This document shows, one piece after another, positions 36,914-56,872 of a DNA stretch of 64,000 nucleotides. Numbering within the stretch: the stretch's first letter is position 1; each line of letters starts with the position of its first letter. The notes beneath the pieces were generated by a model. The model ran no database searches. It was not told the origin of the DNA and was given only the letters and a program-made list of their open reading frames with translations. Both the position numbers and the translations under genes were made by a program. The DNA is taken from assembly GCF_053078305.1 (NCBI RefSeq), contig NZ_CP166879.1, one strand, 5' to 3'.

Positions 36914-36918
36914 AAATA

Positions 36919-39485: not shown

Positions 39486-39495
39486 GGGGGTGACG

Positions 39496-39768: not shown

Positions 39769-39774
39769 TCAACA

Positions 39775-41269: not shown

Positions 41270-41280
41270 CGGGGGATTCT

Positions 41281-41616
41281 ATGGACACTCCATACATTGA
41301 GTTATTTGCAGGCAGTCAGCAGGTATCCACGACGCTGGTACATTTTGCCGCTGATGCTGGCGTTATTCAGGAATTTACCCCGCTGATGCTGGCGGACAAT
41401 GGCGAGTTTAAGCCGTGGGATGGTCAGGAATCTGGCAAGGCTGTTTATCTGACCTCGTACCCCGTGGACACGTCAAAGCAGAAATCAGCACAGTGTTACA
41501 AGACGGGGATATTTAATATCGCCGCCGTAAACTGGCCTGAGAGCGCCGACACTGACGCGAAAAAATGCGCCGCCTTTGCGGGTTCTGGCGTATCCGTTCA
41601 GCCGCTGGCGCGATAA
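41281..41616 (+). CDS. Head decoration protein paralog (gpD-like)
   Basis: 111 aa; TPLMLADNG..KPWDGQ and YKTGIF motifs shared with prophage D. Confidence 0.7.
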   Translation: MDTPYIELFAGSQQVSTTLVHFAADAGVIQEFTPLMLADNGEFKPWDGQESGKAVYLTSYPVDTSKQKSAQCYKTGIFNIAAVNWPESADTDAKKCAAFAGSGVSVQPLAR

Positions 41617-41628
41617 GCAGGGGAAACG

Positions 41629-42042
41629 ATGGCAACGAATGAAAGCATCATGGCGCTACCGCTGGCGAGTAAATTTAAAGCAGAAGCGCGGGCAATGGCT
41701 GACAGAGGTTTATCAACCTACGAGGCCGTATATCAACTCAACAAACTGGAAGAGCAGGACAAGCCGCGCGCTGATGCGATTATGGCGCTTCATGAACATA
41801 ACGACTATCAGCCGCTGTTACGTGCAATGGCAAACGTGCCATGTATTAGCGTCGATAATGCTCGTGAAATCCTGAACATGACCATAGAGCAGGAGCGCCC
41901 AAAGGTTGCGCCGGAGCTTACCGCAGCCTTTGAAAACTTTATGGACATGCACAGCCCGAAAGCCGTATCACCCGGCATGGCATACGACGGCAGAAACCAG
42001 GGCGATGAAGGCGACGTCGATCGCATACTGAAAACCATCTGA
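41629..42042 (+). CDS. Scaffold-like protein (Nu3-like C-terminus)
   Basis: C-terminus ...AAFENFMDMHSPKAV... parallels prophage C/Nu3 tail ...ALFEHFMANHSPAAV... Confidence 0.5.
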   Translation: MATNESIMALPLASKFKAEARAMADRGLSTYEAVYQLNKLEEQDKPRADAIMALHEHNDYQPLLRAMANVPCISVDNAREILNMTIEQERPKVAPELTAAFENFMDMHSPKAVSPGMAYDGRNQGDEGDVDRILKTI

Positions 42043-42072
42043 CATAAGGCCGGAGAAATCCGGCTTTTTTTA

Positions 42073-42150
42073 CGGGTCCTTTCCGGCATATGGACCCGTT
42101 ACGGGGCGGCGACCTCGCGGTTTTTCGCTATTTATGAGCTTTTTTCGGGT
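42073..42150 (+). other. Satellite cos site (cosN 42104-42115)
   Basis: About 48 bp identical to prophage cos (GGGTCCTTTCCGGCATATGGACCCGTTACGGGGCGGCGACCTCGCGG), then divergent. Confidence 0.65.
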
Positions 42151-42236
42151 GCTGGTGGTGGTTTTGTTGTTCGCTCTATCTCTATGAATAAAAAGGGAAA
42201 GATAAAACCAATACACCAACCTGAAACATTACTTAA

Positions 42237-42791
42237 GTGGGGATATTGATGAAATCGCACCTGATGAACAAAAAAAACATGGCGCAAAGCTGCCGTGTAA
42301 GTGCGACAGCGTTCGACAAGTGGGGAGTGACTCCCGTTGAACGTAAAGGACGCGAGGCTTTTTACGATGTTGCCAGCGTGATAGACAATCGGGTAAGCAA
42401 TGCAATTAACCAGGTTACAAACGACAAAGGCGAGATTGATGATGATGAACTCTTACGAGTCAGGATCAGATTACTGACCGCCCAGGCTGAGGCGCAGGAA
42501 CTTAAAAACGAGCGCGATCGCGGTGACGTAATTGATACTGAGTTTTGCCTGTACGCGCTTTCAAAGCTGGCGAGTCAGATTTCTTCAATCATGGACAGTT
42601 TGCCGCTTACCATGCAAAGGCGCTTCCCGCAGATTACTCCCGCTATGCTGGATGGGCTTAAAAGGGAAGTGGTTAAAGCCTGTAATGCCAGTGCCACAGT
42701 TGCCGACAACCTCCCGAAGATACTGGCTGATTACCTGATGGAAACTACCGGAGACGTACCGGAGAAGTTGCTACAGAAGAAAGGCGAGTAA
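42237..42791 (+). CDS. Terminase small subunit homolog (Nu1-like; possible packaging redirector)
   Basis: ...FCLYALSKLASQISSIMDSLPLTMQRRFPQI... parallels Nu1. Confidence 0.65.
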   Translation: MGILMKSHLMNKKNMAQSCRVSATAFDKWGVTPVERKGREAFYDVASVIDNRVSNAINQVTNDKGEIDDDELLRVRIRLLTAQAEAQELKNERDRGDVIDTEFCLYALSKLASQISSIMDSLPLTMQRRFPQITPAMLDGLKREVVKACNASATVADNLPKILADYLMETTGDVPEKLLQKKGE

Positions 42792-42959
42792 CAGACGCGC
42801 AATTATTGAACAAAAGTAAGGCCCGACATGAAATCACCCAAAAATGCCTTTTTCATGCGTTTGTATGTCTGACCTTTTACGGTTTCGATATTATAAAAAA
42901 CAAATAGTTACGCTCGAGAGGTACCGACACGCATTTTTCAGGAAAATTTTCATAAACAG

Positions 42960-43020
42960 ATAAAAACCGCGAGGTCGCCGCCCCGTAACGGGCCATAATT
43001 CCAGGAAGGACCCGACGACA
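42960..43020 (-). other. Second, inverted cos-like site (cosN complement 42972-42983)
   Basis: Minus strand reads CCCGTTACGGGGCGGCGACCTCGCGG...TTTATGAAAATTTTCC. Confidence 0.5.
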
Positions 43021-43047
43021 CCAGGCTATCAGAACGATGAGGGCACA

Positions 43048-43329
43048 ATGACAGAAGCCGAACTACTGGGATTAATCCGCTACGTTACCGGAATCAGCCA
43101 GCAGCATGACGAACAGGCCACGCAGCCGGACAGCGTGACCGCTGAAAATTATGCGCGTGTTGTTGCTGAGGTGATGCGCCGTGATGGTATCCAGCTTAAT
43201 GATGCAGATATGCGCGACATACGGATCCGCGTTCTTGAAATGCTGGCCTACCGTCGCCGCGTGCAGACGTACAGGGAAAAAGCAAAAATAACGTACCAGT
43301 GGAAGAAGCCGGAGCGATTACGGCGGTAA
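43048..43329 (+). CDS. Hypothetical protein
   Basis: 93 aa. Confidence 0.35.
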   Translation: MTEAELLGLIRYVTGISQQHDEQATQPDSVTAENYARVVAEVMRRDGIQLNDADMRDIRIRVLEMLAYRRRVQTYREKAKITYQWKKPERLRR

Positions 43330-43929
43330 CTTGCTGATATTCCCGATAACGCAAAATTGCGCTCTGTCCTAACCCGTTGATATTTTCGGGAACAGCCAAC
43401 GGCTGAGGCCGGAACAACGATTATCTTTCAGATAGTCAGAGCTACGAAATTTTCGTAGTTTAATTACTCGCCAGTTTATCGTTAACTCGTTGATATTTTC
43501 GGTAACCTCAATTTGAGGAGATCGGAAACATAACCCTTCACATTCTGAATGGTTATAATGACCACTCAGACCATCAAGGCAACCATAACGAACATCGTTA
43601 CGGTTGGAGCTTTTACCCCACTGGGGGGAAGGTGCACATCTGGATCATCATTACCGTGATCAAGGGTATGTAAAACCCACCAGCCTGATTAACTGTTAAC
43701 CGGAAAAAAGCCAGGTAGCCAATCTCGATATGGGGATCCCCATATCGACATTAACGCCCCCTAGAACTGCGCATATCTGCATATAAAAACATCCACCAGC
43801 TTTATGACGGATGCCGCTCATCTGATAAATAATCGTGTATTGCAATGTGTATTGCGACTCCTTTAAACGATAGGTTTGAGCATTCGTAATGTACTGTTTT
43901 TAAATTTTATTTTTTCCTGTCTTTTCATA

Positions 43930-43942
43930 AAAGCCATGTATG
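43930..43942 (+). repeat. Right att core AAAGCCATGTATG
   Basis: Direct repeat of 32091-32103. Confidence 0.5.
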
Positions 43943-44709
43943 CAGCGACGATTGAAAGTGAACTTGATACCGAAAAGGCCTTTGAATATATCGCCGGTGC
44001 GCCGCAGGGGCAGAAGGATAATCCGCTTATTAATATTCTGGATAAGTTCTCCACCTGGTATGACACGAATATCGTGACGCTGGGCGGTGTCAAAATTCCG
44101 CACCTTTTCCCCGGTGATGATCTGAAACTTCAGACCGCGCAGGATTCAGACAATGGATTTTCGGCGCTTGAACAGGCGCTGCTGCGGTATATCGCCGCCG
44201 GTCTTGGCGTTTCCTACGAACAGTTGTCCCGTGATTACTCGAAGGTCAGTTATTCAAGTGCCCGCGCCTCCGCCAATGAGTCGTGGCGCTATTTTATGGG
44301 ACGACGAAAATTTATTGCAGCCCGGCTGGCCACGCAGATGTTTTCCTGCTGGCTGGAAGAGGCACTTCTTCGGGGGATTATCCGTCCGCCACGGGCACGT
44401 TTTGATTTTTATCAGGCGCGTTCAGCCTGGTCGCGGGCAGAGTGGATTGGCGCAGGAAGAATGGCCATTGACGGGCTCAAGGAGGTCCAGGAATCAGTGA
44501 TGCGCATTGAGGCCGGACTGAGCACGTATGAGAAAGAGCTGGCGCTGATGGGTGAGGATTATCAGGACATTTTCCGCCAGCAGGTCAGGGAATCCGCAGA
44601 GCGGGAAAAAGCCGGACTCTCACGTCCGGTGTGGATAGCGCAGGCGTATCAGCAGCAGATAGCAGAGAGCCGCAGGCCGGAAGAGGAGACAACACCACGT
44701 GAGACGTAA
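43930..44709 (+). pseudogene. Portal protein (gpB-like), C-terminal ~256 codons
   Basis: Resumes at ...AATIESELDTEKAFEYIAGAPQGQ...; the tracked ORF start at 43876 lies in inserted DNA. Confidence 0.75.
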
Positions 44710-46204
44710 TCTTTCACACATTATTGCCGCAGCATTCAATGAACCGCTGCTTCTGGAGCCCGCCTATGCGCGGGTTTTCTTTTGCGCGCTCGGGCGCGAG
44801 ATGGGGGCAGCAAGTCTTTCGTTACCACAACAGCAGGTACAGCTTGATGCTCCCGGGATGCTGGCTGAAACGGACGAGTACATGGCCGGAGGTAAACGAC
44901 CGGCCCGTGTTTACCGGGTGGTGAACGGTATTGCGGTACTGCCGGTGACCGGCACGCTGGTGCACCGGCTGGGTGGTATGCGGCCATTTTCCGGAATGAC
45001 AGGCTATGACGGCATTGTTGCCTGTCTTCAGCAGGCAATGGCGGACACCTCTGTCCGGGGCGTACTGCTGGATATTGACAGTCCGGGCGGGCAGGCCGCC
45101 GGTGCGTTTGACTGCGCTGACATGATTTACCGCCTCCGGCAGCAGAAGCCGGTCTGGGCACTGTGTAATGACACGGCCTGTTCTGCGGCCATGCTGCTGG
45201 CGTCGGCCTGCTCCCGACGGCTGGTTACCCAGACATCCCGTATCGGCTCCATTGGCGTGATGATGGGCCATGTCAGCTATGCCGGTCATCTGGCGCAGGC
45301 CGGAGTGGATATCACGCTGATTTATGCCGGGGCGCATAAGGTGGATGGCAATCAGTTTGAAGCGTTGCCGTCAGAGGTTCGCCAGGACATGCAGCAGCGG
45401 ATTGATGCGGCGCGCCGGATGTTTGCCGAAAAAGTGGCGATGTATACGGGGCTGTCTGTGGAAGCTGTCACGGGGACAGAGGCTGCCGTTTTTGAAGGTC
45501 AGTCCGGTATTGAAGCCGGGCTGGCGGATGAATTAATCAATGCGTCGGATGCCATCAGTGTGATGGCTGCGGCGTTGAACACACATGATACAGGAGGCAC
45601 TATGCCGCAATTAACTGCAACGGAAGCCGCCGCGCAGGAGAACCAGCGAGTGATGGGGATCCTGACGTGTCAGGAAGCGAAAGGACGTGAACAGCTTGCC
45701 ACGATGCTGGCAGGACAACAGGGCATGAGCGTTGAACAGGCCCGGGCGATTCTGGCCGCGGCGGCACCACAGCAGCCGGTGGCATCCGCGCAGAGTGAAG
45801 CCGATCGCATTATGGCGTGTGAAGAAGCTAAAGGTCGTGAACAACTGGCGGCAACGCTGGCGGCGATGCCGGATATGACGGTGGAAAAAGCCCGCCCGAT
45901 CCTGGCGGCTTCACCGCAGGTGGATGCCGGCCCCTCACTCCGTGATCAGATTATGGCTCTGGATGAGGCAAAAGGGGCTGAGGCGCAGGCTGAACAGCTG
46001 GCTGCCTGCCCGGGAATGACAGTGGAGAGCGCCCGGGCTGTGCTGGCTGCGGGATCAGGTAAGGCAGAACCGGTTTCTGCATCAACAACCGCCCTGTTTG
46101 AACATTTCATGGCGAACCATTCACCGGCAGCCGTGCAGGGTGGCGTGTCACAGACGTCGGCAGACGGTGATGCGGACGTGAAAATGCTCATGGCCATGCC
46201 ATGA
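44699..46204 (+). CDS. Head protease/scaffold (gpC with in-frame Nu3-like C-terminus)
   Basis: S49-type peptidase region ...DIDSPGGQAAG...; three ~36-aa tandem repeats near C-terminus. Confidence 0.8.
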   Translation: MRRNLSHIIAAAFNEPLLLEPAYARVFFCALGREMGAASLSLPQQQVQLDAPGMLAETDEYMAGGKRPARVYRVVNGIAVLPVTGTLVHRLGGMRPFSGMTGYDGIVACLQQAMADTSVRGVLLDIDSPGGQAAGAFDCADMIYRLRQQKPVWALCNDTACSAAMLLASACSRRLVTQTSRIGSIGVMMGHVSYAGHLAQAGVDITLIYAGAHKVDGNQFEALPSEVRQDMQQRIDAARRMFAEKVAMYTGLSVEAVTGTEAAVFEGQSGIEAGLADELINASDAISVMAAALNTHDTGGTMPQLTATEAAAQENQRVMGILTCQEAKGREQLATMLAGQQGMSVEQARAILAAAAPQQPVASAQSEADRIMACEEAKGREQLAATLAAMPDMTVEKARPILAASPQVDAGPSLRDQIMALDEAKGAEAQAEQLAACPGMTVESARAVLAAGSGKAEPVSASTTALFEHFMANHSPAAVQGGVSQTSADGDADVKMLMAMP

Positions 46205-46240
46205 AGTCAGTGCTGACCATCAATATGAGGTTTTTACAAT

Positions 46241-46588
46241 ATGGTAACGAAAACCATCACTGAACAACGTGCGGAAGTACGTATTTTTGCCGGTAATGAT
46301 CCGGCTCATACCGCCACAGGCAGCAGCGGGATTTCTCAGGCAACACCGGCACTGACGCCCCTGATGCTGGATGAAGCCAGCGGGAAACTGGTGGTCTGGG
46401 ACGGACAGAAAGCCGGTAATGCGGCTGGCATACTGGTACTGCCGCTTGAAGGCACAGAGACGGTGCTGACGTATTACAAGTCGGGGACCTTTGCGACGGA
46501 GGCAATCCGCTGGCCTGAAAGTGTGGATGAACACAAAAAGGCCAACGCCTTTGTCGGCACAGCCCTGAGTCACGCGGCGCTGCCGTAA
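46241..46588 (+). CDS. Head decoration protein (gpD-like)
   Basis: 115 aa; ...NDPAHTATGS...TPLMLDEASGKLVVWDGQ...YKSGTF... Confidence 0.8.
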   Translation: MVTKTITEQRAEVRIFAGNDPAHTATGSSGISQATPALTPLMLDEASGKLVVWDGQKAGNAAGILVLPLEGTETVLTYYKSGTFATEAIRWPESVDEHKKANAFVGTALSHAALP

Positions 46589-46645
46589 CACGTTATCAGG
46601 CCACCGCGTTGGCCTGACTGATTTCTGAATGAAAGGAACTGATTT

Positions 46646-47674
46646 ATGGGATTGTTTACGACCCGCCAGTTACTCGGTTATACCGAACAAAAAGTGAAAT
46701 TTCGTGCGCTGTTTCTGGAGCTGTTTTTCCGCCGTACGGTGAATTTCCACACCGAAGAGGTGATGCTGGATAAAATTACCGGAAAAACGCCGGTGGCAGC
46801 CTATGTCTCCCCGGTTGTTGAAGGAAAAGTGCTGCGTCATCGTGGTGGTGAAACCCGCGTGTTGCGTCCGGGCTACGTCAAGCCGAAACACGAATTTAAT
46901 TACCAGCAGGCGGTGGAGCGCCTTCCCGGTGAAGATCCGGCGCAACTGAACGACCCGGCCTACCGTCGTCTGCGTATCATCACTGATAACCTCAAACAGG
47001 AAGAGCATGCCATTGTCCAGGTGGAGGAAATGCAGGCGGTGAATGCCGTGCTGTATGGCAAATACACCATGGAAGGGGAGCAGTTTGATACTGTCGAGGT
47101 GGATTTCGGGCGCTCTGAAGGAAATAACATTGAGCAGGCTGACGGTAAAAAATGGTCTGAGCAGGACCGTGATACGTTTGATCCGACGCATGATATTGAC
47201 CTCTACTGCGATCAGGCCAGCGGTCTTGTGAATATCGCCATTATGGACGGTACGGTCTGGCGTCTGCTGAATGGCTTTAAGTTGTTCCGCGAAAAACTGG
47301 ATGCCCGTCGCGGCTCAAATTCACAACTCGAAACAGCAGTGAAAGACCTGGGGTCGGTGGTGTCCTTCAAGGGGTATTACGGCGATCTGGCCATTGTGGT
47401 GGCGAAAACGTCTTATGTGGCAGAGGACGGTACCGAAAAACGTTATCTGCCGGAGGGCACGCTGGTCCTGGGAAATACGTCAGCGGAGGGCATCCGTTGC
47501 TATGGTGCCATTCAGGATGCGCAGGCGTTGTCCGAAGGTGTGGTGGCCTCTTCCCGTTATCCGAAACACTGGATGACCGTGGGCGATCCGGCCCGTGAAT
47601 TCACCATGACGCAGTCCGCGCCGCTGATGGTGCTGCCGGATCCGGATGAGTTTGTGGTGGTACAGGTGAAATAA
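46646..47674 (+). CDS. Major capsid protein (gpE-like)
   Basis: 342 aa collinear with lambda gpE. Confidence 0.9.
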   Translation: MGLFTTRQLLGYTEQKVKFRALFLELFFRRTVNFHTEEVMLDKITGKTPVAAYVSPVVEGKVLRHRGGETRVLRPGYVKPKHEFNYQQAVERLPGEDPAQLNDPAYRRLRIITDNLKQEEHAIVQVEEMQAVNAVLYGKYTMEGEQFDTVEVDFGRSEGNNIEQADGKKWSEQDRDTFDPTHDIDLYCDQASGLVNIAIMDGTVWRLLNGFKLFREKLDARRGSNSQLETAVKDLGSVVSFKGYYGDLAIVVAKTSYVAEDGTEKRYLPEGTLVLGNTSAEGIRCYGAIQDAQALSEGVVASSRYPKHWMTVGDPAREFTMTQSAPLMVLPDPDEFVVVQVK

Positions 47675-47725
47675 TCCGGGAGCGGGGGCGAAATGCCCCC
47701 GTGTCTTTTTTCACAGGGGGCTGAG

Positions 47726-48109
47726 ATGGCAACAAAAGAAGAAAATCTGAATCGTCTTCGTCAACTGGCTGGTCTGCTGGGGCGCGAGGCGGATATGTCG
47801 GGGAGTGCTGCGGATATTGCTCTGCGTGTGTCTGAGTGGGAAGAGGAGCTTGCAGCTTCCCGGGAGGGCATTATGCACTCTGATGAGAGCGGGTCTGATC
47901 AAAATGACACAGACGATGGTGAGCAGTTGAACAACACGGATTCTCCGGATGATGTTAAAGCCGTCCGGGTACGGAAGTGCCTGCAAGTGATGGGGTATTG
48001 CCCGGAGACAGGTCGTCCCGTTGAGCTGGCGTTACGGGGTATGCGTGTTCTGGTGCCATCATCACTGGCAACGGCCATGATACAGCACGGAACGGCTGAA
48101 TATGCGTGA
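47726..48109 (+). CDS. gpFI-like DNA packaging protein
   Basis: Start at MATKEENLNRLRQLAG; upstream extension rejected. Confidence 0.7.
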   Translation: MATKEENLNRLRQLAGLLGREADMSGSAADIALRVSEWEEELAASREGIMHSDESGSDQNDTDDGEQLNNTDSPDDVKAVRVRKCLQVMGYCPETGRPVELALRGMRVLVPSSLATAMIQHGTAEYA

Positions 48110-48455
48110 TTTTCAGAATGCCTTTGATGCTGCCCTCGCCGGGGTGGACAGTACGATCGTTGAAGTGATGGGGATCCGTGCGCAGTTCACCTCCGGTGCA
48201 CAGCGTGGCGGCGAAGTTCAGGGGGTTTTTGACGATCCGGAGTCGCTGGGTTTTGCCGGTGGCGGGGTCCGTATTGAAGGAAGCAGCCCGTCATTATTTG
48301 TGCGGACGGATACGGTGCGTGCTGTGCGGCGTGGTGACACGCTGACCATTAACGGCGAGATGTTCTGGGTGGATCGTGTTTCTCCGGATGACGGGGGCAG
48401 CTGTTATCTCTGGCTCAACCGTGGGCAACCACCCGCTGTTAACCGGCGACGATAA
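48102..48455 (+). CDS. gpFII-like head-tail connector
   Basis: ...GSSPSLFVRTD.VR..RRGDTLTI....FWVDRVSPDDGGSC.LWL.RG.PPAVNRRR. Confidence 0.8.
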   Translation: MRDFQNAFDAALAGVDSTIVEVMGIRAQFTSGAQRGGEVQGVFDDPESLGFAGGGVRIEGSSPSLFVRTDTVRAVRRGDTLTINGEMFWVDRVSPDDGGSCYLWLNRGQPPAVNRRR

Positions 48456-48470
48456 ACGCAGGGTGAAATT

Positions 48471-48953
48471 ATGGCGATAAAAGGGCTTGATCAGGCGATT
48501 GATAATCTGAGCCGGGTTCGTAAAAACGCCATTCCTGCTGCTTCAGCAATGGCCATTAACCGCGTGGCCACAACGGCAATAAATCAGTCTGCGTCACAGG
48601 TTGCCCGTGAGACAAAGGTACGCCGGAAACTGGTAAAGGAAAGGGCCAGGCTGAAAAGGGCCACGGTAAAAAATCCGCAGGCCAGAATCAAAGTTAACCG
48701 GGGGGATTTGCCTGTAATCAGGCTGGGTAATGCGCGGGTTGTCCTGTCCCGACGCAGGCGACGTAAAAAGGGGCAGCGTTCATCCCTGAAAGGTGGCGGC
48801 AGTGTGCTTGTGGTGGGTAACCGTCGCATTCCCGGCGCGTTTATTCAGCAACTGAAAAATGGGCGGTGGCATGTCATGCAGCGTGTGGCCGGGAAAAACC
48901 GTTACCCCATTGATGTGGTAAAAATCCCGATGGCGGTGCCTGTAACCAGGTAA
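48471..48953 (+). pseudogene. Minor tail protein Z-like, truncated at codon ~157
   Basis: Near-identical to lambda gpZ up to ...VVKIPMAVP then diverges and stops; lambda gpZ is ~190 aa. Confidence 0.75.
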
Positions 48954-49245
48954 ATCATTTGATACCGACAAGGGTTTTAGTGAAAGGAGGTGAAATCACC
49001 TGTAAGATACTGAAATAAAACAGGTGATCGATGATTCTGGAGGTTGTTTAGTTTTGATACTGATTAAATAAAATCCGGTATAAAATTAAGGTATCGGCAA
49101 CAAATTTGATACTGCACATACTGCTTATGGACGTTTTTAAAAGTACTTAAAATGTCTTTTATGCTAAAAAGTTTATATCAATATCGATCTGGTCACAAAT
49201 CAAGTTGAAAGTGCTCGCTAAGTGCATAGCCTGGGCTTCATGGGG
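48941..49245 (+). repeat. Putative Mu-like left end (attL) with repeated TTTGATACYG motifs
   Basis: Motif at least four times in about 200 bp; begins 5'-TG where Z homology ends. Confidence 0.45.
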
Positions 49246-49764
49246 TTACGCTTTGGCTTCTTTATGGGTTAAATTGAAATGATGCTCCTTGGTTTCATCT
49301 CCCTCGAAAATCTCTCTAACCTTTTGATCTGATAAATTATTAAGGCTCAATGCTGCCAGGCGTCGAATACCTGTTAAAGCGATCAACTCTTGATTCTCTT
49401 GATTGCAGAATTCCAGCAATTTTTCTACCCCTTTCCTTCTCAAGGTGTAAATAACTAATTCTTGCTCTTCTTGGCTCAAAGTGTCGATGAGTTCGAGCAA
49501 CTCGCTATTGCCACCGTTCTTTTGAGGGGGCTGGTGTTTTATTTCTGCACTACCTGTAATGATGGAAACAACATGTGCAGGTAAGTCGCTTAAACGGTAG
49601 GCAAATGCTCTCCCTCTGATACCAGGTGTAGTTACCGAACGTTTTTCCCATCCTTCATTTTTTGCTCGTTTATGAAGCCCAGCCAGAGATGAAGGAAGAC
49701 CTCCAACCCCCAACAAGTCACTGGCAAGGATCCATTCTTGGTCAAGGATCATATCAAACTCCAT
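49246..49764 (-). CDS. Mu c-like repressor
   Basis: N-terminal ...LPSSLAGLHKRAK... domain shared with the transposase N-terminus. Confidence 0.7.
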   Translation of the reverse strand: MEFDMILDQEWILASDLLGVGGLPSSLAGLHKRAKNEGWEKRSVTTPGIRGRAFAYRLSDLPAHVVSIITGSAEIKHQPPQKNGGNSELLELIDTLSQEEQELVIYTLRRKGVEKLLEFCNQENQELIALTGIRRLAALSLNNLSDQKVREIFEGDETKEHHFNLTHKEAKA

Positions 49765-49981
49765 TTGATATTAACTTTTGTTTATATCTTTTATGCGGTT
49801 TATTTCAAAAATAACTCAATAAAAAACAAATAGATACAGAGCAAATTTAAAAATTTGAAATTAACCAGTTGATATTTACTAAGTTAATATCTAACATATC
49901 AAACATACACTAGTGAGTAACTCAATAGAGTAGCACACATGAGTAATAAAGTTTGCCATAGAAAGTACACAGGGGGCCATT

Positions 49982-50227
49982 GTGAGTCTTATTGAAGATT
50001 GGTCTTCCGCCGATATAAAGGCAGCCTTAGAAAAACGCGATACCAATTTGTCACGTTTATCAAGGGAAAATAATTTGCAGCCTAGGACTTTGGGTAATGC
50101 TTTGCGAGTTCCCTACCCTAAAGGTGAAAAGATAATTGCTAGGGCTATAGGTGTAGAGCCACAGGTTATTTGGCCTACTAGATATGAACGACGTGCGCGG
50201 AGGAAATATGTGGGTTGCAATGACTGA
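49982..50227 (+). CDS. ner: Ner-like DNA-binding regulator
   Basis: 81 aa; ...LSRLSRENNLQPRTLGNAL...KGEKIIARAIGVEPQVIWPTRY. Confidence 0.7.
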   Translation: MSLIEDWSSADIKAALEKRDTNLSRLSRENNLQPRTLGNALRVPYPKGEKIIARAIGVEPQVIWPTRYERRARRKYVGCND

Positions 50228-52292
50228 ATTGATTTCATTCAGTGACCTACCTAGTTCTTTGGCAGGTCTGCACAAAAAAGCAAAGAGGGAAGCGTGGAAA
50301 ACGCGGCTAAAACCAGGGGTAAAAGGGAAAGTTTTAGAGTGTGAAATAGGAGCTTTGCCTTTAACTGTTCAGCAGGCAGTACGCGAACGCCATGCCCTGC
50401 AACTGATGACGCAAAAAGCCGATGAATCACCGGCTCCGGTGGTGACAAAGGCCAGACGCTCACCTGCCGTGGTTGATGCGGTGGAGGCATATCGCGGATC
50501 ACCCCAACTGATGGTCGAACGCCTCAATGCCCTGACTGAAAATCAGCGCCAGGTGGCTGATGCACGAATCGCGATCGTCAGCGAAGTTCTGAAAGTCGCG
50601 CAACAACCTGGTTTCAGCTGTGCGAAGGCTATCCGGTTTATCGTTGACAACCTGGCACGTTCGCAGTTGGACGAGCGCATTGTGGCAATGGTTGAGACGG
50701 CGAACGCCAAAAAGGGAAACAGCCGCGCGTTAAGTGAAATCACGCTGAAACGCTGGATTGCGGCCTTTAACAAGGCGCAGAACGCCGCTGAACGCCTGCT
50801 TTTACTGGCACCGGGTAAGCGCCAGGAAATAAAAGCCGAAGATATTAACTGGCTGCCCGAATTTCTGGCGCAGTATCGCCAGTCAAACGGCCGACCAATG
50901 ACCGAGGCTTACGAGGATTTTGTCGCTGAATGGCAGCACCGGCACGCCGATGAGCCTTATATGCTCGATATCATGCCGTCTTATGACACCATTCGCCGCG
51001 CAATGAAGAAACTGCCGGAAGTGGTGAAACAAAAAGGCCGGGTGACCGGCAGTGAATACCGCCAGCTTGAGGGATTCACGCGCCGCGACTGGTCAAAAAT
51101 GCCGGTGAATTATGTCTGGATTGGTGACGGTCACGGCATGAAGCTGAAATGCGCACACCCGGTTCACGGTCGGCCATTTGCACCGGAAGTGACCTTTGTT
51201 ATCGACGGTGGCACGCGCTTTGTGGTGGGCTGGAGCCTTGACCTGGCTGAAAATGTTTTCGCCGTAGCCGGTGCCATACAGCACGGCATTCGCCATCACG
51301 GCAAACCGTTTCTGTATTACTCGGATAACGGCTCCGGGGAAACCGCCGACATCCTGGATAAGGAGGTTGTGGGGATACTGCCGCGACTGGGGATTAATCA
51401 CCCGACCGGGATTGCCGGTAATCCGCAGGGACGAGGCATTATCGAACGGCTTAACCGCACATTACCGATGCGCATAGCCCGTAAATACCGCACCTATTTC
51501 GGGAAAGGTGCAGATCGCGAGACGTTACGCAAAACCAACCGCGATTTACGCTCGGCATTTACTGCCCTGCAACAGGGCAAACGGCTGAACGCCCGGCAGC
51601 AGTCAGCGATGCGTGATTTACCGTCCTGGTCTGAACTGATTGATGCCATTCGTGACGGTGTTGAGTGGTACAACAACCGGCCGCACGATGAATTACCGGT
51701 GAAGCCGAACGGCAAGCATTACAGCCCGGCGGAGTTCAGAAAAAAACGCCTGGCGGAAGAGGACACGGAAATTGAATGGCTGTCCGATGTTGAGCTGCGG
51801 GATATGTTCCGGCCGATGGTGGAACGCCCTGTAAGACGCTGTGAAATACGCTGGCTGAATAATATTTACTACGCGCCCGAGCTGCGTGACGAGCATGGTC
51901 GTAAGGTGCTTATCAGCTATGACATTCATGATGCCGAACGAATTACCGTACGTCGCCTGGATGGCAGCGTGATTTGCGAGGCGGTATGGGACGGTAATAA
52001 ACGCGAAGCCTTCCCGGTTAGCGCGGAATACTACAAACAGCAGCAACGCCTTAAAGGCATGCGTAAACGCGCAGAGGAAAAAATCCGTGATGCCGAGGAT
52101 GAGGTTGTCAACGTGCTGGAGCACAAGCCGCAGGAGCCCTGGCTGGAAAACATATACCGCCCTGTGGGTAATACGGTGACCGTTCAGCAACCGGTCGCTG
52201 ACGATGAACCTGATGAAGAATACGAGCGTAATTTCCAGCGGGGATTGCAGTTGCTGGAAGCGAAATTAAAAGAAAATGACCCGCTGGCCTGA
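50208..52292 (+). CDS. MuA-like DDE transposase
   Basis: About 695 aa; repressor-like N-terminal domain; GGAGG RBS; start overlaps ner. Confidence 0.85.
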   Translation: MWVAMTELISFSDLPSSLAGLHKKAKREAWKTRLKPGVKGKVLECEIGALPLTVQQAVRERHALQLMTQKADESPAPVVTKARRSPAVVDAVEAYRGSPQLMVERLNALTENQRQVADARIAIVSEVLKVAQQPGFSCAKAIRFIVDNLARSQLDERIVAMVETANAKKGNSRALSEITLKRWIAAFNKAQNAAERLLLLAPGKRQEIKAEDINWLPEFLAQYRQSNGRPMTEAYEDFVAEWQHRHADEPYMLDIMPSYDTIRRAMKKLPEVVKQKGRVTGSEYRQLEGFTRRDWSKMPVNYVWIGDGHGMKLKCAHPVHGRPFAPEVTFVIDGGTRFVVGWSLDLAENVFAVAGAIQHGIRHHGKPFLYYSDNGSGETADILDKEVVGILPRLGINHPTGIAGNPQGRGIIERLNRTLPMRIARKYRTYFGKGADRETLRKTNRDLRSAFTALQQGKRLNARQQSAMRDLPSWSELIDAIRDGVEWYNNRPHDELPVKPNGKHYSPAEFRKKRLAEEDTEIEWLSDVELRDMFRPMVERPVRRCEIRWLNNIYYAPELRDEHGRKVLISYDIHDAERITVRRLDGSVICEAVWDGNKREAFPVSAEYYKQQQRLKGMRKRAEEKIRDAEDEVVNVLEHKPQEPWLENIYRPVGNTVTVQQPVADDEPDEEYERNFQRGLQLLEAKLKENDPLA

Positions 52293-52363
52293 AATAAAAA
52301 AATAACCCGAGCGGCGACTCAGGTTATTTGATTAAACAAGGTATCAAATGAAAGGTTAATAAT

Positions 52364-53296
52364 ATGACTGATATTAACGATGTAATCAAGACCATTGATG
52401 AACTTATTGATGGCGGCGTACTGACGCAGTATGCCATCGCCAGAGAGGCGGGAATTTCCGACGGCACATTATCGGCTTTCCGTAAGGGAAAATATAAAGG
52501 CGATAACGCTGCTGTGGCTGCTTCCCTGCGTTCCTGGTATGAGAACTGGAATAAACAAAGCGCACTGCCGGAACCGCCGCAGTTTGTGGAAACGCAGACA
52601 GTCCAGGAGCTGCGCACACTGTTTCAGGCGGTTCGTCTGATGGGCTGTATTAACGTTATTGTGGGCGTACCGGGTGTGGGTAAAACGGCCACTGCCCGTA
52701 ATTACTGCCAGGAGCAACCAAACACCTGGATGATCACCCTGTCACCCGCGCACTCCAGCGTCACGGAGTGTCTGCTGGAGCTGGCCGATGCGCTGGGGAT
52801 TGATTACACCCGCGCGAACAAAGGGGCATTATCCCGCGCCATCCGCCGTCGCCTGATGGGAACGCGTGGACTGGTGATTGTGGATGAGGCGGATCATCTT
52901 GGTATTGACGGTCTGGAGCAACTCCGGGCAATTCAGGACGCCACGGGGATCGGGATGGTGCTTATTGGTAACCCGCGCGGATTGTTTAAAGGTGGACGCC
53001 GCGCCTTTGATGATTTATCGCGCCTGTTCAGCCGTCTTGCCCGTACAAAACAACTTCGCAAGGCCAAAAAGGCGGATGTGCTGGCCATTGCCAGTGCGTG
53101 GGGGATCAGTGGTGAGGCCGAGCTGGCCGTCATGCAGGCTATCGCTGAAAAGCCGGGAGCGTTACGCGTTCTGACACATACGCTTAACCAGGCGTGGCTC
53201 ACCGCCAGCGGTGAAGGCGCGGCGCTGACAGAAAAACATATTAATGCGGCCTTTAAAGAGGTTTATACCAACCCTGAATTACTCTCACAGGTGTGA
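52364..53296 (+). CDS. MuB-like AAA+ ATPase
   Basis: Walker A VGVPGVGKT, Walker B VIVDEADHL. Confidence 0.85.
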   Translation: MTDINDVIKTIDELIDGGVLTQYAIAREAGISDGTLSAFRKGKYKGDNAAVAASLRSWYENWNKQSALPEPPQFVETQTVQELRTLFQAVRLMGCINVIVGVPGVGKTATARNYCQEQPNTWMITLSPAHSSVTECLLELADALGIDYTRANKGALSRAIRRRLMGTRGLVIVDEADHLGIDGLEQLRAIQDATGIGMVLIGNPRGLFKGGRRAFDDLSRLFSRLARTKQLRKAKKADVLAIASAWGISGEAELAVMQAIAEKPGALRVLTHTLNQAWLTASGEGAALTEKHINAAFKEVYTNPELLSQV

Positions 53297-53520
53297 TTAT
53301 GGCGGTATTTAATATTCCTGATATTTACGGACGCTTTTACCTGGTTAATTTCGATAACGTGAAGGTGATTTCACTGGCCGAAAATAAAGAATGTGGCGAT
53401 TTACTTTTTGAATTTAATGACCGCACACGAATGGTGATATCTGCCGGACTTGATCGCGAAGGTGCGACAGACGTTTACAGCGGAATATGCCGTTCTGTTG
53501 GTGCGAAACAAGTCAGCTAA
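53293..53520 (+). CDS. Small early protein (kil position)
   Basis: 75 aa immediately after B; positional. Confidence 0.35.
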   Translation: MIMAVFNIPDIYGRFYLVNFDNVKVISLAENKECGDLLFEFNDRTRMVISAGLDREGATDVYSGICRSVGAKQVS

Positions 53521-53787
53521 ATGAGGTGTTATATGAATATGCAATCCTGCGGTAACAAAATGAATTTATTCGACTCCCTGAACAGCGCGCGCCGTCTGAC
53601 CGAACTTGCCGGTGCGGTACTGGAACGCAGTAAGCGCTATCCGCAACGTTTTGCACTGAAAACCACGCCGCCGGTAGGCAACGTGCAGGGAACCGGTGAA
53701 ATTGAAATCACCATACAGACCAACGGCCTGCGCCGCCGTGTGAAGGCCACCCGCATCAGCGGCTGCACGGTTTACTGGGAGGTGTGA
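53521..53787 (+). CDS. Hypothetical early protein
   Basis: 88 aa. Confidence 0.3.
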   Translation: MRCYMNMQSCGNKMNLFDSLNSARRLTELAGAVLERSKRYPQRFALKTTPPVGNVQGTGEIEITIQTNGLRRRVKATRISGCTVYWEV

Positions 53788-53864
53788 GGTGAAAAAAAAA
53801 TCTCATTGCATGGGCGTGGTCGAGTGGTCTTATTGAGTTTGGTTACGTCCTGCCGGAAGGTGCA

Positions 53865-54071
53865 TTGCCGATAGTTGCCGGAAAGCCTGCCACGGTACGG
53901 CATGTGATTGAGGTTATGGCGCGTCATGGACGTGATGAACAGGAGCAGTTACTGGTTCCGGGGATACCGGAAGCGGTGACGGAGGAAGAAGCCTTTAATG
54001 CCATGATTCGGTTCTGCCGTGAGGTCAGACGCCGGGTCAGTTATCCAAACAGAACGAGGACCAGAGGATGA
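53865..54071 (+). CDS. Hypothetical early protein
   Basis: 68 aa. Confidence 0.3.
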   Translation: MPIVAGKPATVRHVIEVMARHGRDEQEQLLVPGIPEAVTEEEAFNAMIRFCREVRRRVSYPNRTRTRG

Positions 54072-54340
54072 GTAAAGTCGTACGCATTATTTTCGAATAC
54101 AAGGAGCACGTTATCCATAAAAACGCGGATGGAACAGTGCGCATGGGGATAAGTCTGGACATACGTTCAACCGGGATAAAGCAGAAAGGTGATGGACCTG
54201 CCATGATTTTTGGGGTGGTTATGCTCGCGGAAAGCAGAGACTTTGCTGAACTTGTGGCAATGAAAGCCAGTGCGCTCATGAAAGATATGAGCATGCGTTC
54301 CGGGGTTATTAAAGGTAATGAATTTAATCAGCAGGGGTAA
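54068..54340 (+). CDS. Hypothetical early protein (paralog A)
   Basis: MSKVVRIIFEYKEHV... Confidence 0.4.
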   Translation: MSKVVRIIFEYKEHVIHKNADGTVRMGISLDIRSTGIKQKGDGPAMIFGVVMLAESRDFAELVAMKASALMKDMSMRSGVIKGNEFNQQG

Positions 54341-54344
54341 TTCC

Positions 54345-54638
54345 ATGAGCAAAGTACGCGTTATTTTTGAATTTAAGCATGTTTCGCATGACGAAAAACC
54401 GGCAGGCAATGACTGTGTTGAAGTGCATGAAAAGATTGGTGTGGATGTAAAAACAGAACGTGATACGAATAACAGGCCGACGTCACTCTGTGACGTTTAT
54501 GTAAGTATTCTCCAGTATCACAGTCCTGAAATTATTCAGTTTCTCTCAGCGGAATTTCAGGCATCTGTACAGGCTTTTGGGGCGGATGCCATCATTAAAC
54601 GCCACCGCGTGCATAAAGCATCAGGCACACTGCAATAA
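54345..54638 (+). CDS. Hypothetical early protein (paralog B)
   Basis: MSKVRVIFEFKHVSH...; same N-terminal signature as previous gene. Confidence 0.4.
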   Translation: MSKVRVIFEFKHVSHDEKPAGNDCVEVHEKIGVDVKTERDTNNRPTSLCDVYVSILQYHSPEIIQFLSAEFQASVQAFGADAIIKRHRVHKASGTLQ

Positions 54639-54649
54639 GGAAAAACAAA

Positions 54650-55180
54650 ATGGCAAAACGCGTTACAAAATTAAAGGCCGCAGCAGAGGCGGCACCGCAG
54701 ACCCGTGAAGAGGTCAGCCGCGATATCCGCACCCTGGGCGATATTCAGCGAGAGGCGCTGCGCCTGGAAACAGCGATGAATGATGAAGTGGCAGAAATCA
54801 CCGCCCGTTATACGCCGCAGATTGAAAACCTTAAAAAAGAAATCAAAGTGCTTTTTAAGGGGATTCAGGACTGGTGCAAAACCAACCGTGATGAGCTGAC
54901 GAACGGCGGCAAAACCAAAACTGCCAATCTGACCACCGGAACAGTGTCATGGCGGCTGGGAAATCCATCATGCAGCGTCAGCCGTGATGTGGAAGGTGTG
55001 ATTGAAATGCTGCGCCGTATGGGGCTTGAGCGATTCATCCGCACGAAAGAGGAAGTGAACAAGGAAGCGGTCCTGGCGGAGCCGGATGCAGTGAAAGGCA
55101 TTGCCGGTATTAAGGTGAATAAAGGCGCTGAAAGTTTTTATGTCGAGCCTTTTGAACAGGACGCCGGACTGAATAAATAA
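54650..55180 (+). CDS. gam: Gam-like host-nuclease inhibitor
   Basis: ...IGDIQREALRLETAMNDEVAEI...ANRDELTNGGKTKTANL...RFIRTKEEVNKEA... matches Mu Gam. Confidence 0.85.
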   Translation: MAKRVTKLKAAAEAAPQTREEVSRDIRTLGDIQREALRLETAMNDEVAEITARYTPQIENLKKEIKVLFKGIQDWCKTNRDELTNGGKTKTANLTTGTVSWRLGNPSCSVSRDVEGVIEMLRRMGLERFIRTKEEVNKEAVLAEPDAVKGIAGIKVNKGAESFYVEPFEQDAGLNK

Positions 55181-55277
55181 CACCGCATTAAATCTTTAAA
55201 TATCACATCGTTTTAAGTATGGCGCTCGCGTCAGGGGACTGTCTGCGCCTGTAAACTGAAAATAAGGAACAGGATAT

Positions 55278-55820
55278 ATGGCATATTTTTATTTCAAATT
55301 AGACCGTGTGCAGACAAATAAATATTTCACCAAATATCAACAGACTGTTTTACCGCTACGCAACAGTATTCTTCGGGCATTACTGAAAAATACAGGCGCT
55401 GCCGGATTGCGCTTAAAGCCGTTTGCCATGGACGTAATCAGTGAGTTTTATTTTTCTGGTACTCTGCCTGCGGGCTGGCGTAAGCGCGATGATGTGGCTT
55501 TTATCGGGGACGGACCGTGCTTTATTGCCAGACCTGATGAGTCATGCCCTGAAGGACCGGCGATTGCCGCAATGATTGAAGCCGCTGAACGCGAGTTAAG
55601 AAAGCGTCCTGATTTCCTTGTCTGGCTCTGTGAAAAGCTGGGGGTAATGAGAATCCCCTCCATGTTTAACATGGACTCCTGGTGGACCCCGTCGCTCTCC
55701 CGTGATGCCCTGTGCGTGGTGTTTAAAGTAGGCGCTTATGGCAGGGAAATAAAAGGGGGTATTCCTGAAGAATGCCAGGAGATTAAACATTCTGAATATG
55801 TGGCGCTGACGGAGGAATAA
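55278..55820 (+). CDS. Hypothetical early protein
   Basis: 180 aa. Confidence 0.4.
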   Translation: MAYFYFKLDRVQTNKYFTKYQQTVLPLRNSILRALLKNTGAAGLRLKPFAMDVISEFYFSGTLPAGWRKRDDVAFIGDGPCFIARPDESCPEGPAIAAMIEAAERELRKRPDFLVWLCEKLGVMRIPSMFNMDSWWTPSLSRDALCVVFKVGAYGREIKGGIPEECQEIKHSEYVALTEE

Positions 55821-55823
55821 TTC

Positions 55824-56357
55824 ATGATTGATGCAAAAGTGCTTGAAGGGGTTAAAAACTGGCTGAGTATTTACGGGCGTCTGACCTGCGGAGTTCTGGC
55901 TGAAAAAATGAATATGCCGCCATCCTCGATGGTTTATTTTCTGCGTGATGCGGTTGATGCCGGGGTGCTGACGGAATGTAACGGTTTTTATGATATTCCG
56001 CGTCCCCGCCCGGTGCAGCCGGTTCGTCGCAAATGCAGCCAGGAGTCTGCGGCTGATGATGTTCAGTGGTGCAGCTTCAGAAAATCCCTGCCGTGGATTG
56101 AGGGGCATGATATTCCGTCGATGGCGTGGGAATTTGCTCAGGGCATACTGACCTGTGAAACCGTTTATGTGGTGGCTGAAGTTGATGAGCAGGCCATGAA
56201 AGAAGGCGTGCCCCAGTTTGTGATGGCGTATATCGACATACGCCTGGGTGTCATTATCTGCGGTTTAAGCGGCTGGAATATCACCTCGCGCGTTCTGCGT
56301 TACCTGATTGTTGACCGGACGGCCGCGCCTGCCGGGATATCTGCGGAGGTGGCGTAA
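55824..56357 (+). CDS. Hypothetical early protein
   Basis: 177 aa. Confidence 0.4.
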   Translation: MIDAKVLEGVKNWLSIYGRLTCGVLAEKMNMPPSSMVYFLRDAVDAGVLTECNGFYDIPRPRPVQPVRRKCSQESAADDVQWCSFRKSLPWIEGHDIPSMAWEFAQGILTCETVYVVAEVDEQAMKEGVPQFVMAYIDIRLGVIICGLSGWNITSRVLRYLIVDRTAAPAGISAEVA

Positions 56358-56872
56358 TGTTCTTTAAAACATCAAACCCTTCCGCGCTGGCCGCGTGGCA
56401 AAAATATCAGCAGGACTGCCAGAAAGTTAAGGATGAGGCAAAACGCCTTGAGGCCGTGCTGAATGTTGCGTGCCGGTCGGTATTTGTATCCGGTATCAGT
56501 GGCTTTTGTTTTAAAGGGCTGCGCTTTATGGATGACAAATATCCTTTTCATCGCGACTTATGGCGAAAACCGACTGCGTCGAATGGCTGGAGCTGCACAC
56601 CGCGCACATCACGTATTCCCAAAGCCCTGCGCGTTGCCTCTGACGAACTTAACAGTCTGTGGCGTGAATATTCGCCCGTCACGTATGCCAGAACCGATGC
56701 ACTGTTGTTCTGGCTGGGTATTGATTTCTCGGCAATCATGTTTGGCCCTGTGAAGTGGTTCTGCGTTGACGATGTGATTTACCTTGAGTGCGGCGTAAAA
56801 CCCGCAAATCAGAAAATGACCGAAATTCTGTCTGATGAGTTTTATGCTGCTGAAAAGCGAGTCAGGGGGTGA
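56357..56872 (+). CDS. Hypothetical early protein
   Basis: 171 aa, coupled. Confidence 0.4.
   Translation: MFFKTSNPSALAAWQKYQQDCQKVKDEAKRLEAVLNVACRSVFVSGISGFCFKGLRFMDDKYPFHRDLWRKPTASNGWSCTPRTSRIPKALRVASDELNSLWREYSPVTYARTDALLFWLGIDFSAIMFGPVKWFCVDDVIYLECGVKPANQKMTEILSDEFYAAEKRVRG

What the first reader, a model, noticed from the sequence alone, without database searches (positions are those of the whole stretch)
48471..49245. Mu-like prophage transposed into tail gene Z; candidate left end with TTTGATACYG repeats
The Z gene matches lambda gpZ closely up to codon ~155 and then terminates; immediately beyond are at least four TTTGATACYG-like motifs and then the divergent c/ner switch. This fits a Mu-type left end with transposase binding sites inserted in Z.
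Basis: partly seen in the sequence, partly recalled or inferred. Interest (0 to 1): 0.6.

Follow-up and report, generated by a model that had tools for sequence, protein, structure and literature searches.

The report
Mu-like prophage inside lambdoid tail gene

Summary
The observation and the interpretation both hold. The Z ORF (48471..48953) is collinear with an intact 192-aa Z through codon 157, and the DNA diverges exactly at 48941. There a ~39-kb Sp18-type Mu-like prophage begins (5'-TGTAACC...). Nearly identical copies lie next to a different gene in each of many E. coli genomes.

The right junction is outside the window. I found it in an independent assembly of the same lineage (IMG 2617271340): ...CGCCGCGCTATA|TGCC|GCTGACCAC..., followed by the rest of Z and then U, V, G, T, H. 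Removing the element and one TGCC copy restores a full Z.

Three corrections:
- The target duplication is 4 bp, not 5. Nine of nine independent insertions, including Sakai Sp18, show it, and two GenBank records annotate it.
- The right terminus ends in TA, not CA.
- Only the three direct TTTGATACYG copies are positionally conserved in a heteroimmune relative (cores ending at element positions 27, 122 and 174). The inverted fourth copy is not.

The site geometry matches Mu's L1–L3 and R1–R2. Gene order c / ner-A-B, the N-terminal domain shared by c and A, the DDE triad and a B protein 49% identical to MuB all fit Mu. Mu-like insertions into prophages have been published (PMC10132054). Interest is low.

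The parts
48471..48940 (+). 5' 470 nt of lambdoid tail-completion gene Z (of 579 nt). As it stands the ORF runs on to 48953, reading V-T-R-stop from the inserted element.
   Evidence: PHROG 27 match. Collinear with intact Z in L007 up to 48940. Megablast against 5,426 E. coli genomes breaks at 48940|48941.
48937..48940 (.). Left copy of the 4-bp target-site duplication, TGCC
   Evidence: The right junction in L014 reads ...GCGCTATA|TGCC|GCTGACCAC. Joining the flanks with a single TGCC restores a 192-aa Z.
48941..64000 (+). Left 15,060 bp of an Sp18-type transposable Mu-like prophage. It runs off the window; complete copies are 38.8-40.0 kb.
   Evidence: 98.3% identical to the complete copy in L001 over 8.5 kb. 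96.9% identical to Sakai Sp18 from element position 1430 onward. Found at many different host sites.
48946..48967 (+). L1-like 22-bp end site (element positions 6-27); core TTTGATACCG at 48958..48967
   Evidence: Same distance from the terminus as R1 of this element and as Mu L1/R1. Conserved in Sp18 and in L008.
49041..49062 (+). L2-like site (element positions 101-122); core TTTGATACTG at 49053..49062
   Evidence: The core is kept at exactly the same position in heteroimmune relatives, although the surrounding sequence has diverged.
49093..49114 (+). L3-like site (element positions 153-174); core TTTGATACTG at 49105..49114
   Evidence: The core and the upstream ATCGGCAA are kept at the same position in heteroimmune relatives. 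Mu L3's core ends at 172.
49076..49085 (-). Inverted 1-mismatch copy (TTTTATACCG); probably not a functional site
   Evidence: Absent at this position in L008 and in Sp18.
49246..49764 (-). c-type immunity repressor (172 aa by first ATG; RefSeq relatives aa)
   Evidence: PHROG 7148 repressor, E 9e-47. N-terminus 42% identical to the N-terminus of A and 32% identical to Mu c.
49750..49904 (.). Operator-like region: five T(T/A)GATAT motifs in two clusters (49750-49775 and 49866-49904). The second cluster overlaps a rightward promoter-like site at 49869..49897.
   Evidence: Function is inferred by analogy with Mu O1-O3/Pe.
49982..50227 (+). ner-type early regulator (81 aa)
   Evidence: 53% identical to Mu Ner. 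PHROG 769 and NCBIfam SfsB/Ner-like matches.
50184..52292 (+). Transposase A (702 aa from the first ATG; relatives annotate 694 aa)
   Evidence: Pfam Mu-transpos_C 3.5e-17 and HTH_Tnp_Mu_1 5.6e-8. PHROG 310, E 2e-206. N-terminus matches MuA I-alpha (1tns) and Mu repressor (1g4d). D315 and D381 align with MuA D269 and D336; E421 sits in GRGIIER.
52364..53296 (+). B-type AAA+ transposition/target-capture protein (310 aa)
   Evidence: 48.7% identical to MuB over 300 aa, E 3e-98. PHROG 296 match.

Best explanation
A transposable Mu-like phage of the Sp18 type integrated by DDE transposition into gene Z of a resident lambdoid prophage. It was a simple insertion with a 4-bp staggered target cut, duplicating TGCC.

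Shown:
- The exact junctions at the element's termini.
- The duplication, and restoration of Z when the element is removed.
- The Mu-type gene set and the Mu-type layout of repeats at both ends.

Inferred by analogy with Mu:
- Transposase A binds the 22-bp sites L1-L3 (cores at 48958, 49053, 49105) and R1-R3 through its central domains. Its N-terminal domain, shared with repressor c, binds the operator/enhancer region between c and ner. B delivers target DNA. The 3'-OH ends (left ...TACA-3' on the bottom strand, right ...TATA-3') attack the target 4 bp apart, and gap repair creates the duplication.
- In the lysogen, c shuts off the rightward ner-A-B early operon.

Inferred consequences for the lambdoid prophage: gpZ loses its last 35 residues. 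The tail genes U, V, G, T, H and beyond are moved ~39 kb away from the head genes and the late promoter. The cos-to-cos distance becomes far too long to package. The prophage is therefore stranded.
For: - Break point: the megablast match splits exactly at 48940|48941. The Z side is found in ~3,700 genomes. The other side is found at 97-99.7% identity in 12 genomes, each beside a different gene (hyfF, ypdA, yahO, torZ, meaB, IS66 and others). Right ends likewise lie beside melA, sbmA, a portal gene, a terminase gene and others.
- Z: identical in layout to an intact Z through codon 157.
- Termini and duplication: TGTAACC...GCGCTATA with a perfect 4-bp duplication in 9 of 9 insertions: CGAG, TTTT, GATC, TTAA, CTGA; CATC, AGAG (also annotated by the depositors); TAAA in Sakai Sp18; TGCC here.
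- Right junction: found in viral contigs cut from one IMG genome. L015 equals window 36643..49412 with no substitutions. L014 carries the right end, TGCC, and the rest of Z followed by tail genes, 99.6% identical to L007.
- Site geometry: cores end at 27/122/174 (left) and 27/49/84 (right), against Mu's 27/132/172 and 27/49.
- Conservation: the L2 and L3 cores stay at the same positions in a diverged immunity module.
- Proteins.
- Complete copies have Mu-like organisation: gam, mor, lysis, head, contractile tail, invertase, com/mom.
- Literature: Sp18 is judged intact and its DNA is packaged (PMC2669165). Six of 10 Sp18-like phages in closed STEC genomes lie inside other mobile elements, including Stx phages (PMC10132054).
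Against: - The window ends 15 kb into the element, so this copy's right end is not in the window. The two junctions come from two separate viral contigs of one IMG genome. The ~21 kb between the window's end and L014 was not seen as one continuous sequence.
- No experiment shows that A binds the repeats.
- The right terminus is TA rather than Mu's canonical CA, and the duplication is 4 bp rather than 5 bp, so the mechanism is not identical to Mu's in detail.
- The transposase core is only distantly related to MuA. A sequence search of PDB recovers MuA's N-terminal domain and retroviral integrase cores, but not the MuA core.
Confidence: 0.93

Rival explanations
1. One-ended remnant or Mu-mediated rearrangement. 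The left end abuts Z, but the distal part of Z was deleted or moved by replicative transposition, so this is not a simple insertion.
For: The right end is not in the window. Neither the junction nor the fusion protein is present in 5,426 complete E. coli genomes, the species-representative genomes or the protein index.
Against: In the same lineage, an element right terminus is joined to TGCC plus the exact continuation of Z, followed by U, V, G, T, H. The empty site reconstructs perfectly, which is what a simple insertion predicts.
Confidence: 0.03
2. Assembly chimera: the Z/Mu joint is an artefact of misassembly between two prophages.
For: STEC-like genomes are full of repeated prophage sequence. 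The window differs from L015 by 13 single-base indels.
Against: An independent assembly has the identical junction. The break falls exactly on the element's terminal base, as in nine other copies, and has a matching duplication at the other end. The indels lie 10 kb away, at 37.6-38.9 kb.
Confidence: 0.01
3. The TTTGATACYG repeats are regulatory sites (repressor operators or a host-factor array) rather than transposase end-binding sites.
For: They lie just downstream of the c gene. The c-ner operators have a partly similar core, T(T/A)GATAT. No binding data exist.
Against: The same motif occurs three times at the right end, 39 kb from c and ner. Its first copy sits at the same distance from the terminus (18-27) and the second exactly 22 bp further in, as in Mu R1/R2. 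The motif is conserved across two immunity types whose repressors differ. The intergenic operators use a different motif.
Confidence: 0.05
4. Site-specific integration by a tyrosine or serine recombinase into an att site inside Z.
For: Another element in the same prophage, the island in the portal gene, does integrate site-specifically.
Against: The element has no integrase at its ends. It encodes a DDE transposase and a MuB-like ATPase. The nine sequenced junction pairs and the other listed ends lie at unrelated target sites, with a short duplication and no shared att core.
Confidence: 0.01

Closest known systems
Prophage Sp18 of E. coli O157:H7 Sakai (Mu-like) and its relatives in STEC
   Same: Same termini (TGTAACC...GCGCTATA), the same 4-bp duplication and the same end-site positions. 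96.9% nucleotide identity from element position 1430 to the end of the window, with the same gene order. Described as intact and packaged (PMC2669165) and as occupying strain-specific sites (PMC7430833).
   Different: Element positions 89-1429 (window 49029-50369: the L2/L3 surroundings, c, ner and the first ~62 codons of A) are unrelated to Sp18. They match the immunity type found in L001-L005. The insertion site, Z of a lambdoid prophage, is not present in any of 5,426 complete E. coli genomes.
Mu-like phage insertions in Stx-converting prophages (GenBank LC727881 and LC727895; Nakamura et al. 2023, PMC10132054)
   Same: The same phage family inserted inside a lambdoid prophage, with a 4-bp duplication annotated by the depositors. 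The paper reports 6 of 10 copies inside mobile elements.
   Different: Different target positions (duplications CATC and AGAG) and the Sp18 immunity type. I saw no stx genes among the ORFs I examined, but I did not search the window for them.
Bacteriophage Mu (and its heteroimmune relative D108)
   Same: - Divergent c / ner-A-B layout.
- Repressor and transposase share an N-terminal DNA-binding domain.
- MuB homologue (49% identity) and Ner homologue (53%).
- Three end sites per end, with L1/R1 at positions 6-27, R2 at 28-49, and L2/L3 100-175 bp in.
- 5'-TG at the left end; near-random target choice.
- gam, mor, com/mom and an invertase in complete copies.
- Immunity-module swapping that includes the 5' end of A parallels Mu versus D108 (the D108 comparison is from my own knowledge).
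   Different: - 4-bp rather than 5-bp duplication.
- Right terminus TA rather than CA.
- End-site core TTTGATACYG rather than RYRCGAAAR.
- R3 is direct rather than inverted.
- A is only ~21-32% identical to MuA in patches, and c is similar only over its N-terminal ~50 residues.
- Almost no nucleotide similarity to Mu: 73% over ~500 bp.

Membership tests
Mu-type transposable phage | MuA-family DDE transposase (Mu N-terminal DNA-binding domain, DDE core, Mu transposase C-terminal domain) | tested here: met
   Pfam Mu-transpos_C 3.5e-17 and HTH_Tnp_Mu_1 5.6e-8, with a weak rve hit. D315 and D381 align with MuA D269 and D336; E421 lies in GRGIIER. PHROG 310, E 2e-206.
Mu-type transposable phage | MuB-type AAA+ target-capture protein encoded downstream of A | tested here: met
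   48.7% identity to MuB over 300 aa, E 3e-98.
Mu-type transposable phage | Leftward c repressor divergent from the ner-A-B operon; c and A share an N-terminal DNA-binding domain | tested here: met
   Gene order. c versus A: 42% identity over 55 aa, E 4e-12. The N-terminus of A matches both 1tns (MuA I-alpha) and 1g4d (Mu repressor).
Mu-type transposable phage | Three transposase-binding sites at each end in the L1 / spacer / L2-L3 and R1-R2-R3 layout | tested here: met
   Cores end at 27/122/174 (left) and 27/49/84 (right), against Mu's 27/132/172 and 27/49 plus an inverted R3. The positions are conserved in heteroimmune relatives. This is a sequence layout only.
Mu-type transposable phage | Transposase physically binds those sites | not testable with these tools
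   Needs footprinting or EMSA with purified A protein.
Mu-type transposable phage | Termini 5'-TG...CA-3' | tested here: not met
   The left end is TG. The right end is ...CTATA (TA) in every copy whose right junction was read: L001-L005, LC727881, LC727895, Sp18 and L014.
Mu-type transposable phage | 5-bp target-site duplication | tested here: not met
   Nine of nine insertions have a perfect 4-bp duplication. The fifth base matches in only 2 of the 7 pairs scored for it; it also fails to match in the window's own pair and in Sp18, judged by eye from the flanks. Depositors annotate 4 bp.
Mu-type transposable phage | Insertion at many unrelated target sites (transposition, not site-specific integration) | tested here: met
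   More than 20 different flanking genes across E. coli genomes, including one plasmid.
Sp18-type Mu-like phage of STEC | High nucleotide identity and shared termini with Sakai Sp18 | tested here: met
   96.9% over 11.7 kb and 96.6% over the terminal 88 bp, with identical termini and site positions. The immunity module (positions 89-1429) differs.
Simple insertion in Z (this locus) | Right end abuts the remainder of Z with a matching duplication | tested here: met
   L014...GCGCTATA|TGCC|GCTGACCACAGC... The reconstructed Z is 192 aa and matches the intact Z at all but one residue. Seen in an independent assembly of the same lineage, not in the window itself.

The most novel reading that the evidence does not exclude
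The Sp18 group is a natural MuA-family variant whose transpososome joins the two ends 4 bp apart instead of 5, and which uses an asymmetric TG...TA pair of termini. The full-text searches I ran found no description of this; it appears only as a 4-bp repeat_region in two GenBank records. If it is truly uncharacterised, comparing this transposase with MuA would give a natural experiment on what sets the target stagger and how strictly the terminal CA is required.
Probability: 0.35. Interest if true: 0.35.

Novelty: already known. Interest (0 to 1): 0.2.

Why it matters
Mainly for annotation.
- The junction explains why Z looks truncated.
- It explains why this 'prophage' would be called as a region of 100 kb or more.
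- It shows the lambdoid prophage is stranded: Z is cut, the tail genes are displaced by ~39 kb, and the portal gene is also split by a second element.
- It adds one more documented case of mobile elements nesting inside prophages in E. coli.

The only point of wider mechanistic interest is that this Mu-like lineage consistently makes 4-bp duplications and has a TA right terminus.

Tried and rejected
- Looked for the window's own junction in 5,426 complete E. coli genomes. None has it.
- Exact look-up of the Z fusion protein: not on record.
- Scans of species-representative genomes for the predicted right junction and the exact left junction: both empty. This showed only that the genome is not in that collection.
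- H74 (strain RM13322), a right end next to an 'HK97 gp10 family' gene, looked like a possible match. It is a separate insertion in a different, HK97-type prophage, in the opposite orientation.
- A 5-bp duplication was considered in both possible registers, taking the element's first T or last A as target DNA. It was rejected because the extra base matches in only about a quarter of copies.
- Sequence search of PDB with A did not recover the MuA catalytic core, only the N-terminal domain and retroviral integrase cores. Pairwise BLAST and Pfam were needed.
- The simple terminator scan found nothing in 48900-50300.
- Literature searches for a published statement of the 4-bp duplication found nothing.

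Full report
**What is at the coordinates.**
The ORF at 48471..48953 (160 aa) is a lambda Z-type tail-completion gene (PHROG 27, E 3e-57). I aligned it to an intact 192-aa Z from E. coli CFIAFB20190167 (L007:2672-3250). The two differ at four bases (one amino-acid change) up to window 48940, and from 48941 onward they are unrelated. The window ORF then reads V-T-R-stop out of the foreign DNA. GC content falls from ~0.54 to ~0.36-0.40 at the same point.

**The break is a mobile-element terminus.**
Megablast of 48300-49900 against 5,426 complete E. coli genomes splits exactly at 48940|48941. The Z side matches about 3,700 genomes. The other side matches 12 genomes at 96.7-99.7% identity, each beside a different host gene: hyfF, ypdA, yahO, torZ, meaB, an IS66 gene and others. 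No genome has the two halves joined.

A complete copy (L001, in hyfF) has Mu organisation: c, ner, A, B, gam, mor, lysis genes, head genes, contractile tail, invertase and com/mom. Its right end also occurs beside many different genes, including prophage portal, terminase and gp10-type genes, and once on a plasmid.

**Termini and duplication.**
Five complete chromosomal copies (L001-L005) share the termini TGTAACC...GCGCTATA and are flanked by perfect 4-bp repeats: CGAG, TTTT, GATC, TTAA and CTGA. I tested a 5-bp duplication in both possible registers. It fails, because the extra base agrees in only about a quarter of copies.

Two deposited Stx-phage records, LC727881 and LC727895, carry the same phage. 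They annotate a 4-bp 'duplication due to insertion of Mu_...', here CATC and AGAG. Sakai Sp18 itself is 38,755 bp with the duplication TAAA.

The right end lies outside the window. The window's genome is absent from the complete E. coli set, from the species-representative genomes and from the protein index.

Scanning IMG/VR found both junctions in viral contigs cut from one IMG genome, taxon 2617271340:
- L015 equals window 36643..49412 with no substitutions and 13 single-base indels. It is therefore an independent assembly of the same lineage.
- L014 reads ...AAAAAATCGCCGCGCTATA|TGCC|GCTGACCACAGCATTTAAACAG... and runs through the end of Z into U, V, G, T and H. It is 99.6% identical to L007.

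Joining the window's Z fragment to L014 with a single TGCC gives a 192-aa Z that matches the intact Z at all but one residue. The insertion is therefore simple, with a 4-bp duplication. One caveat remains: the ~21 kb between the window's end and L014 was not seen as one continuous sequence.

**The repeats.**
Exact TTTGATACYG occurs at 48958, 49053 and 49105 on the + strand. A 1-mismatch inverted copy lies at 49076..49085. None of 20,000 shuffles of the 305-bp left end gave three or more exact copies.

Counted from the terminus, the cores end at positions 27, 122 and 174. At the right end they end at 27, 49 and 84. In Mu's real sequence the RYRCGAAAR cores end at 27, 132 and 172 on the left and at 27 and 49 on the right, plus an inverted R3. 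So L1/R1 occupy positions 6-27 and R2 occupies 28-49 in both phages.

A natural control exists. Sp18 and the Stx-phage copies match the window's element for the first 88 bp, then diverge until position 1430. Yet they keep the direct cores at exactly 113-122 and 165-174, and they lack the inverted copy. Three sites are therefore supported, not four. Binding by the transposase remains an inference.

**Proteins.**

| Protein | Evidence |
|---|---|
| A (702 aa) | Pfam Mu-transpos_C and HTH_Tnp_Mu_1; 21-32% identical to MuA in patches |
| A, N-terminus | Matches the MuA I-alpha domain (1tns) and the Mu repressor DNA-binding domain (1g4d) |
| A, catalytic residues | D315 and D381 align with MuA D269 and D336; E421 lies in GRGIIER |
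| c | Shares its N-terminal domain with A (42% over 55 aa) |
| B | 49% identical to MuB |
| Ner | 53% identical to Mu Ner |

The c-ner intergenic region carries five T(T/A)GATAT motifs in two clusters. One cluster overlaps the only rightward promoter-like site. That is what a Mu-type operator/early-promoter switch would look like, but it is an inference.

**Mechanism.**
Shown: the junctions at the termini, the duplication, the restoration of Z, the gene content and the site layout.

Inferred by analogy with Mu: A assembles on L1-L3 and R1-R3, helped by its N-terminal domain binding the operator/enhancer. B supplies target DNA. The 3' ends attack the target 4 bp apart, and repair duplicates TGCC. 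In the lysogen, c represses ner-A-B.

Inferred consequences for the lambdoid prophage: gpZ loses 35 C-terminal residues. The tail genes are moved ~39 kb away from the head genes and the late promoter. The cos-to-cos length is far beyond lambda's packaging capacity.

**Comparison with what is known.**
This is the Sp18-type Mu-like phage family of STEC. PMC2669165 describes Sp18 as apparently intact and efficiently packaged. PMC7430833 notes strain-specific integration sites. PMC10132054 reports that 6 of 10 copies in closed genomes lie inside other mobile elements and that several Stx phages carry such insertions.

The element works like Mu but fails two textbook Mu features that I tested: the 5-bp duplication and the CA right terminus. 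It is best filed as a Mu-type transposable phage of the Sp18 lineage, not as Mu or D108. I found no paper in the library stating the 4-bp duplication. Only the GenBank annotations do.

**Verdict.**
The kind of event is already known, so interest is low (0.2). The most novel residue is the consistent 4-bp stagger and TA terminus of this MuA-family lineage.

Noticed in passing
window ~32100..43930: A second, unrelated insertion in the same lambdoid prophage. The lambda-type portal gene is split into an N-terminal half (31278..32150) and a C-terminal half (43876..44709) by an ~11.7-kb island. The island carries a tyrosine integrase (32299..33540), an anti-repressor-like gene, an Icd-like regulator, a primase/helicase-like gene (37215..38624), its own HK97-type major capsid gene (40214..41269) and a small terminase (42237..42791). 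The repeat GTGTATTGCAATGTGTATTGC lies near both ends. A similar island splits the portal gene of a different, DLP12-like prophage in strain SCEC020022 (L016), and the integrase|portal junction recurs in many genomes. It looks like a phage-satellite-type island whose attachment site is inside lambdoid portal genes. Satellites inside prophages have been reported (PMC10085698, discussion), but I did not check whether this one is described.
   Followed up: partly
window 49029..50369 (element positions 89-1429): Immunity-module swap. This stretch covers the surroundings of L2/L3, c, ner and the first ~62 codons of A, which is exactly the domain A shares with c. It is unrelated to Sakai Sp18 and to the copies in LC727881 and LC727895, while the flanking sequence is 96-97% identical. 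From my own knowledge, this parallels the Mu/D108 heteroimmune pair.
   Followed up: partly
window 57434..57634: Mosaic difference in the early region. The window has 201 bp where the closest copy (L001) has 667 bp containing two small hypothetical genes. Sakai Sp18 aligns straight through this stretch, which suggests the window shares Sp18's arrangement here. A second short non-matching patch lies at 62088..62256.
   Followed up: partly
window 37587..38876 versus L015: All 13 single-base indel differences between the window and the independent IMG assembly cluster in 1.3 kb, inside and just after the primase-like ORF of the island. The window keeps a 469-aa ORF, whereas L015 is frameshifted. 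This is probably local sequencing error in the older assembly.
   Followed up: yes
window 48995..49028: A 9-bp inverted repeat (ATCACCTGT / ACAGGTGAT) with a 16-nt loop lies in the L1-L2 spacer. The loop contains a 2-mismatch copy of the end motif (TAAGATACTG). It falls within the 88 bp conserved across immunity types. No T-run follows it, so it is not a standard terminator. Its function is unknown.
   Followed up: no
L001:19193-19272 (and the same position in L002-L004): RefSeq annotates a 'tRNA-OTHER' between the head-morphogenesis and virion-morphogenesis genes of the Mu-like phage. ARAGORN finds no tRNA there. This position lies beyond the end of the window.
   Followed up: partly
hits H52, H55, H74, H81; L006: Other copies of this Mu-like phage also sit in prophage genes: a portal gene (strain War), a terminase gene (2018-166) and an HK97 gp10-type gene (RM13322). 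One copy is on a 167-kb plasmid next to yeaW (NZ_CP074995.1). I did not test whether prophage targets are over-represented or merely better tolerated.
   Followed up: no
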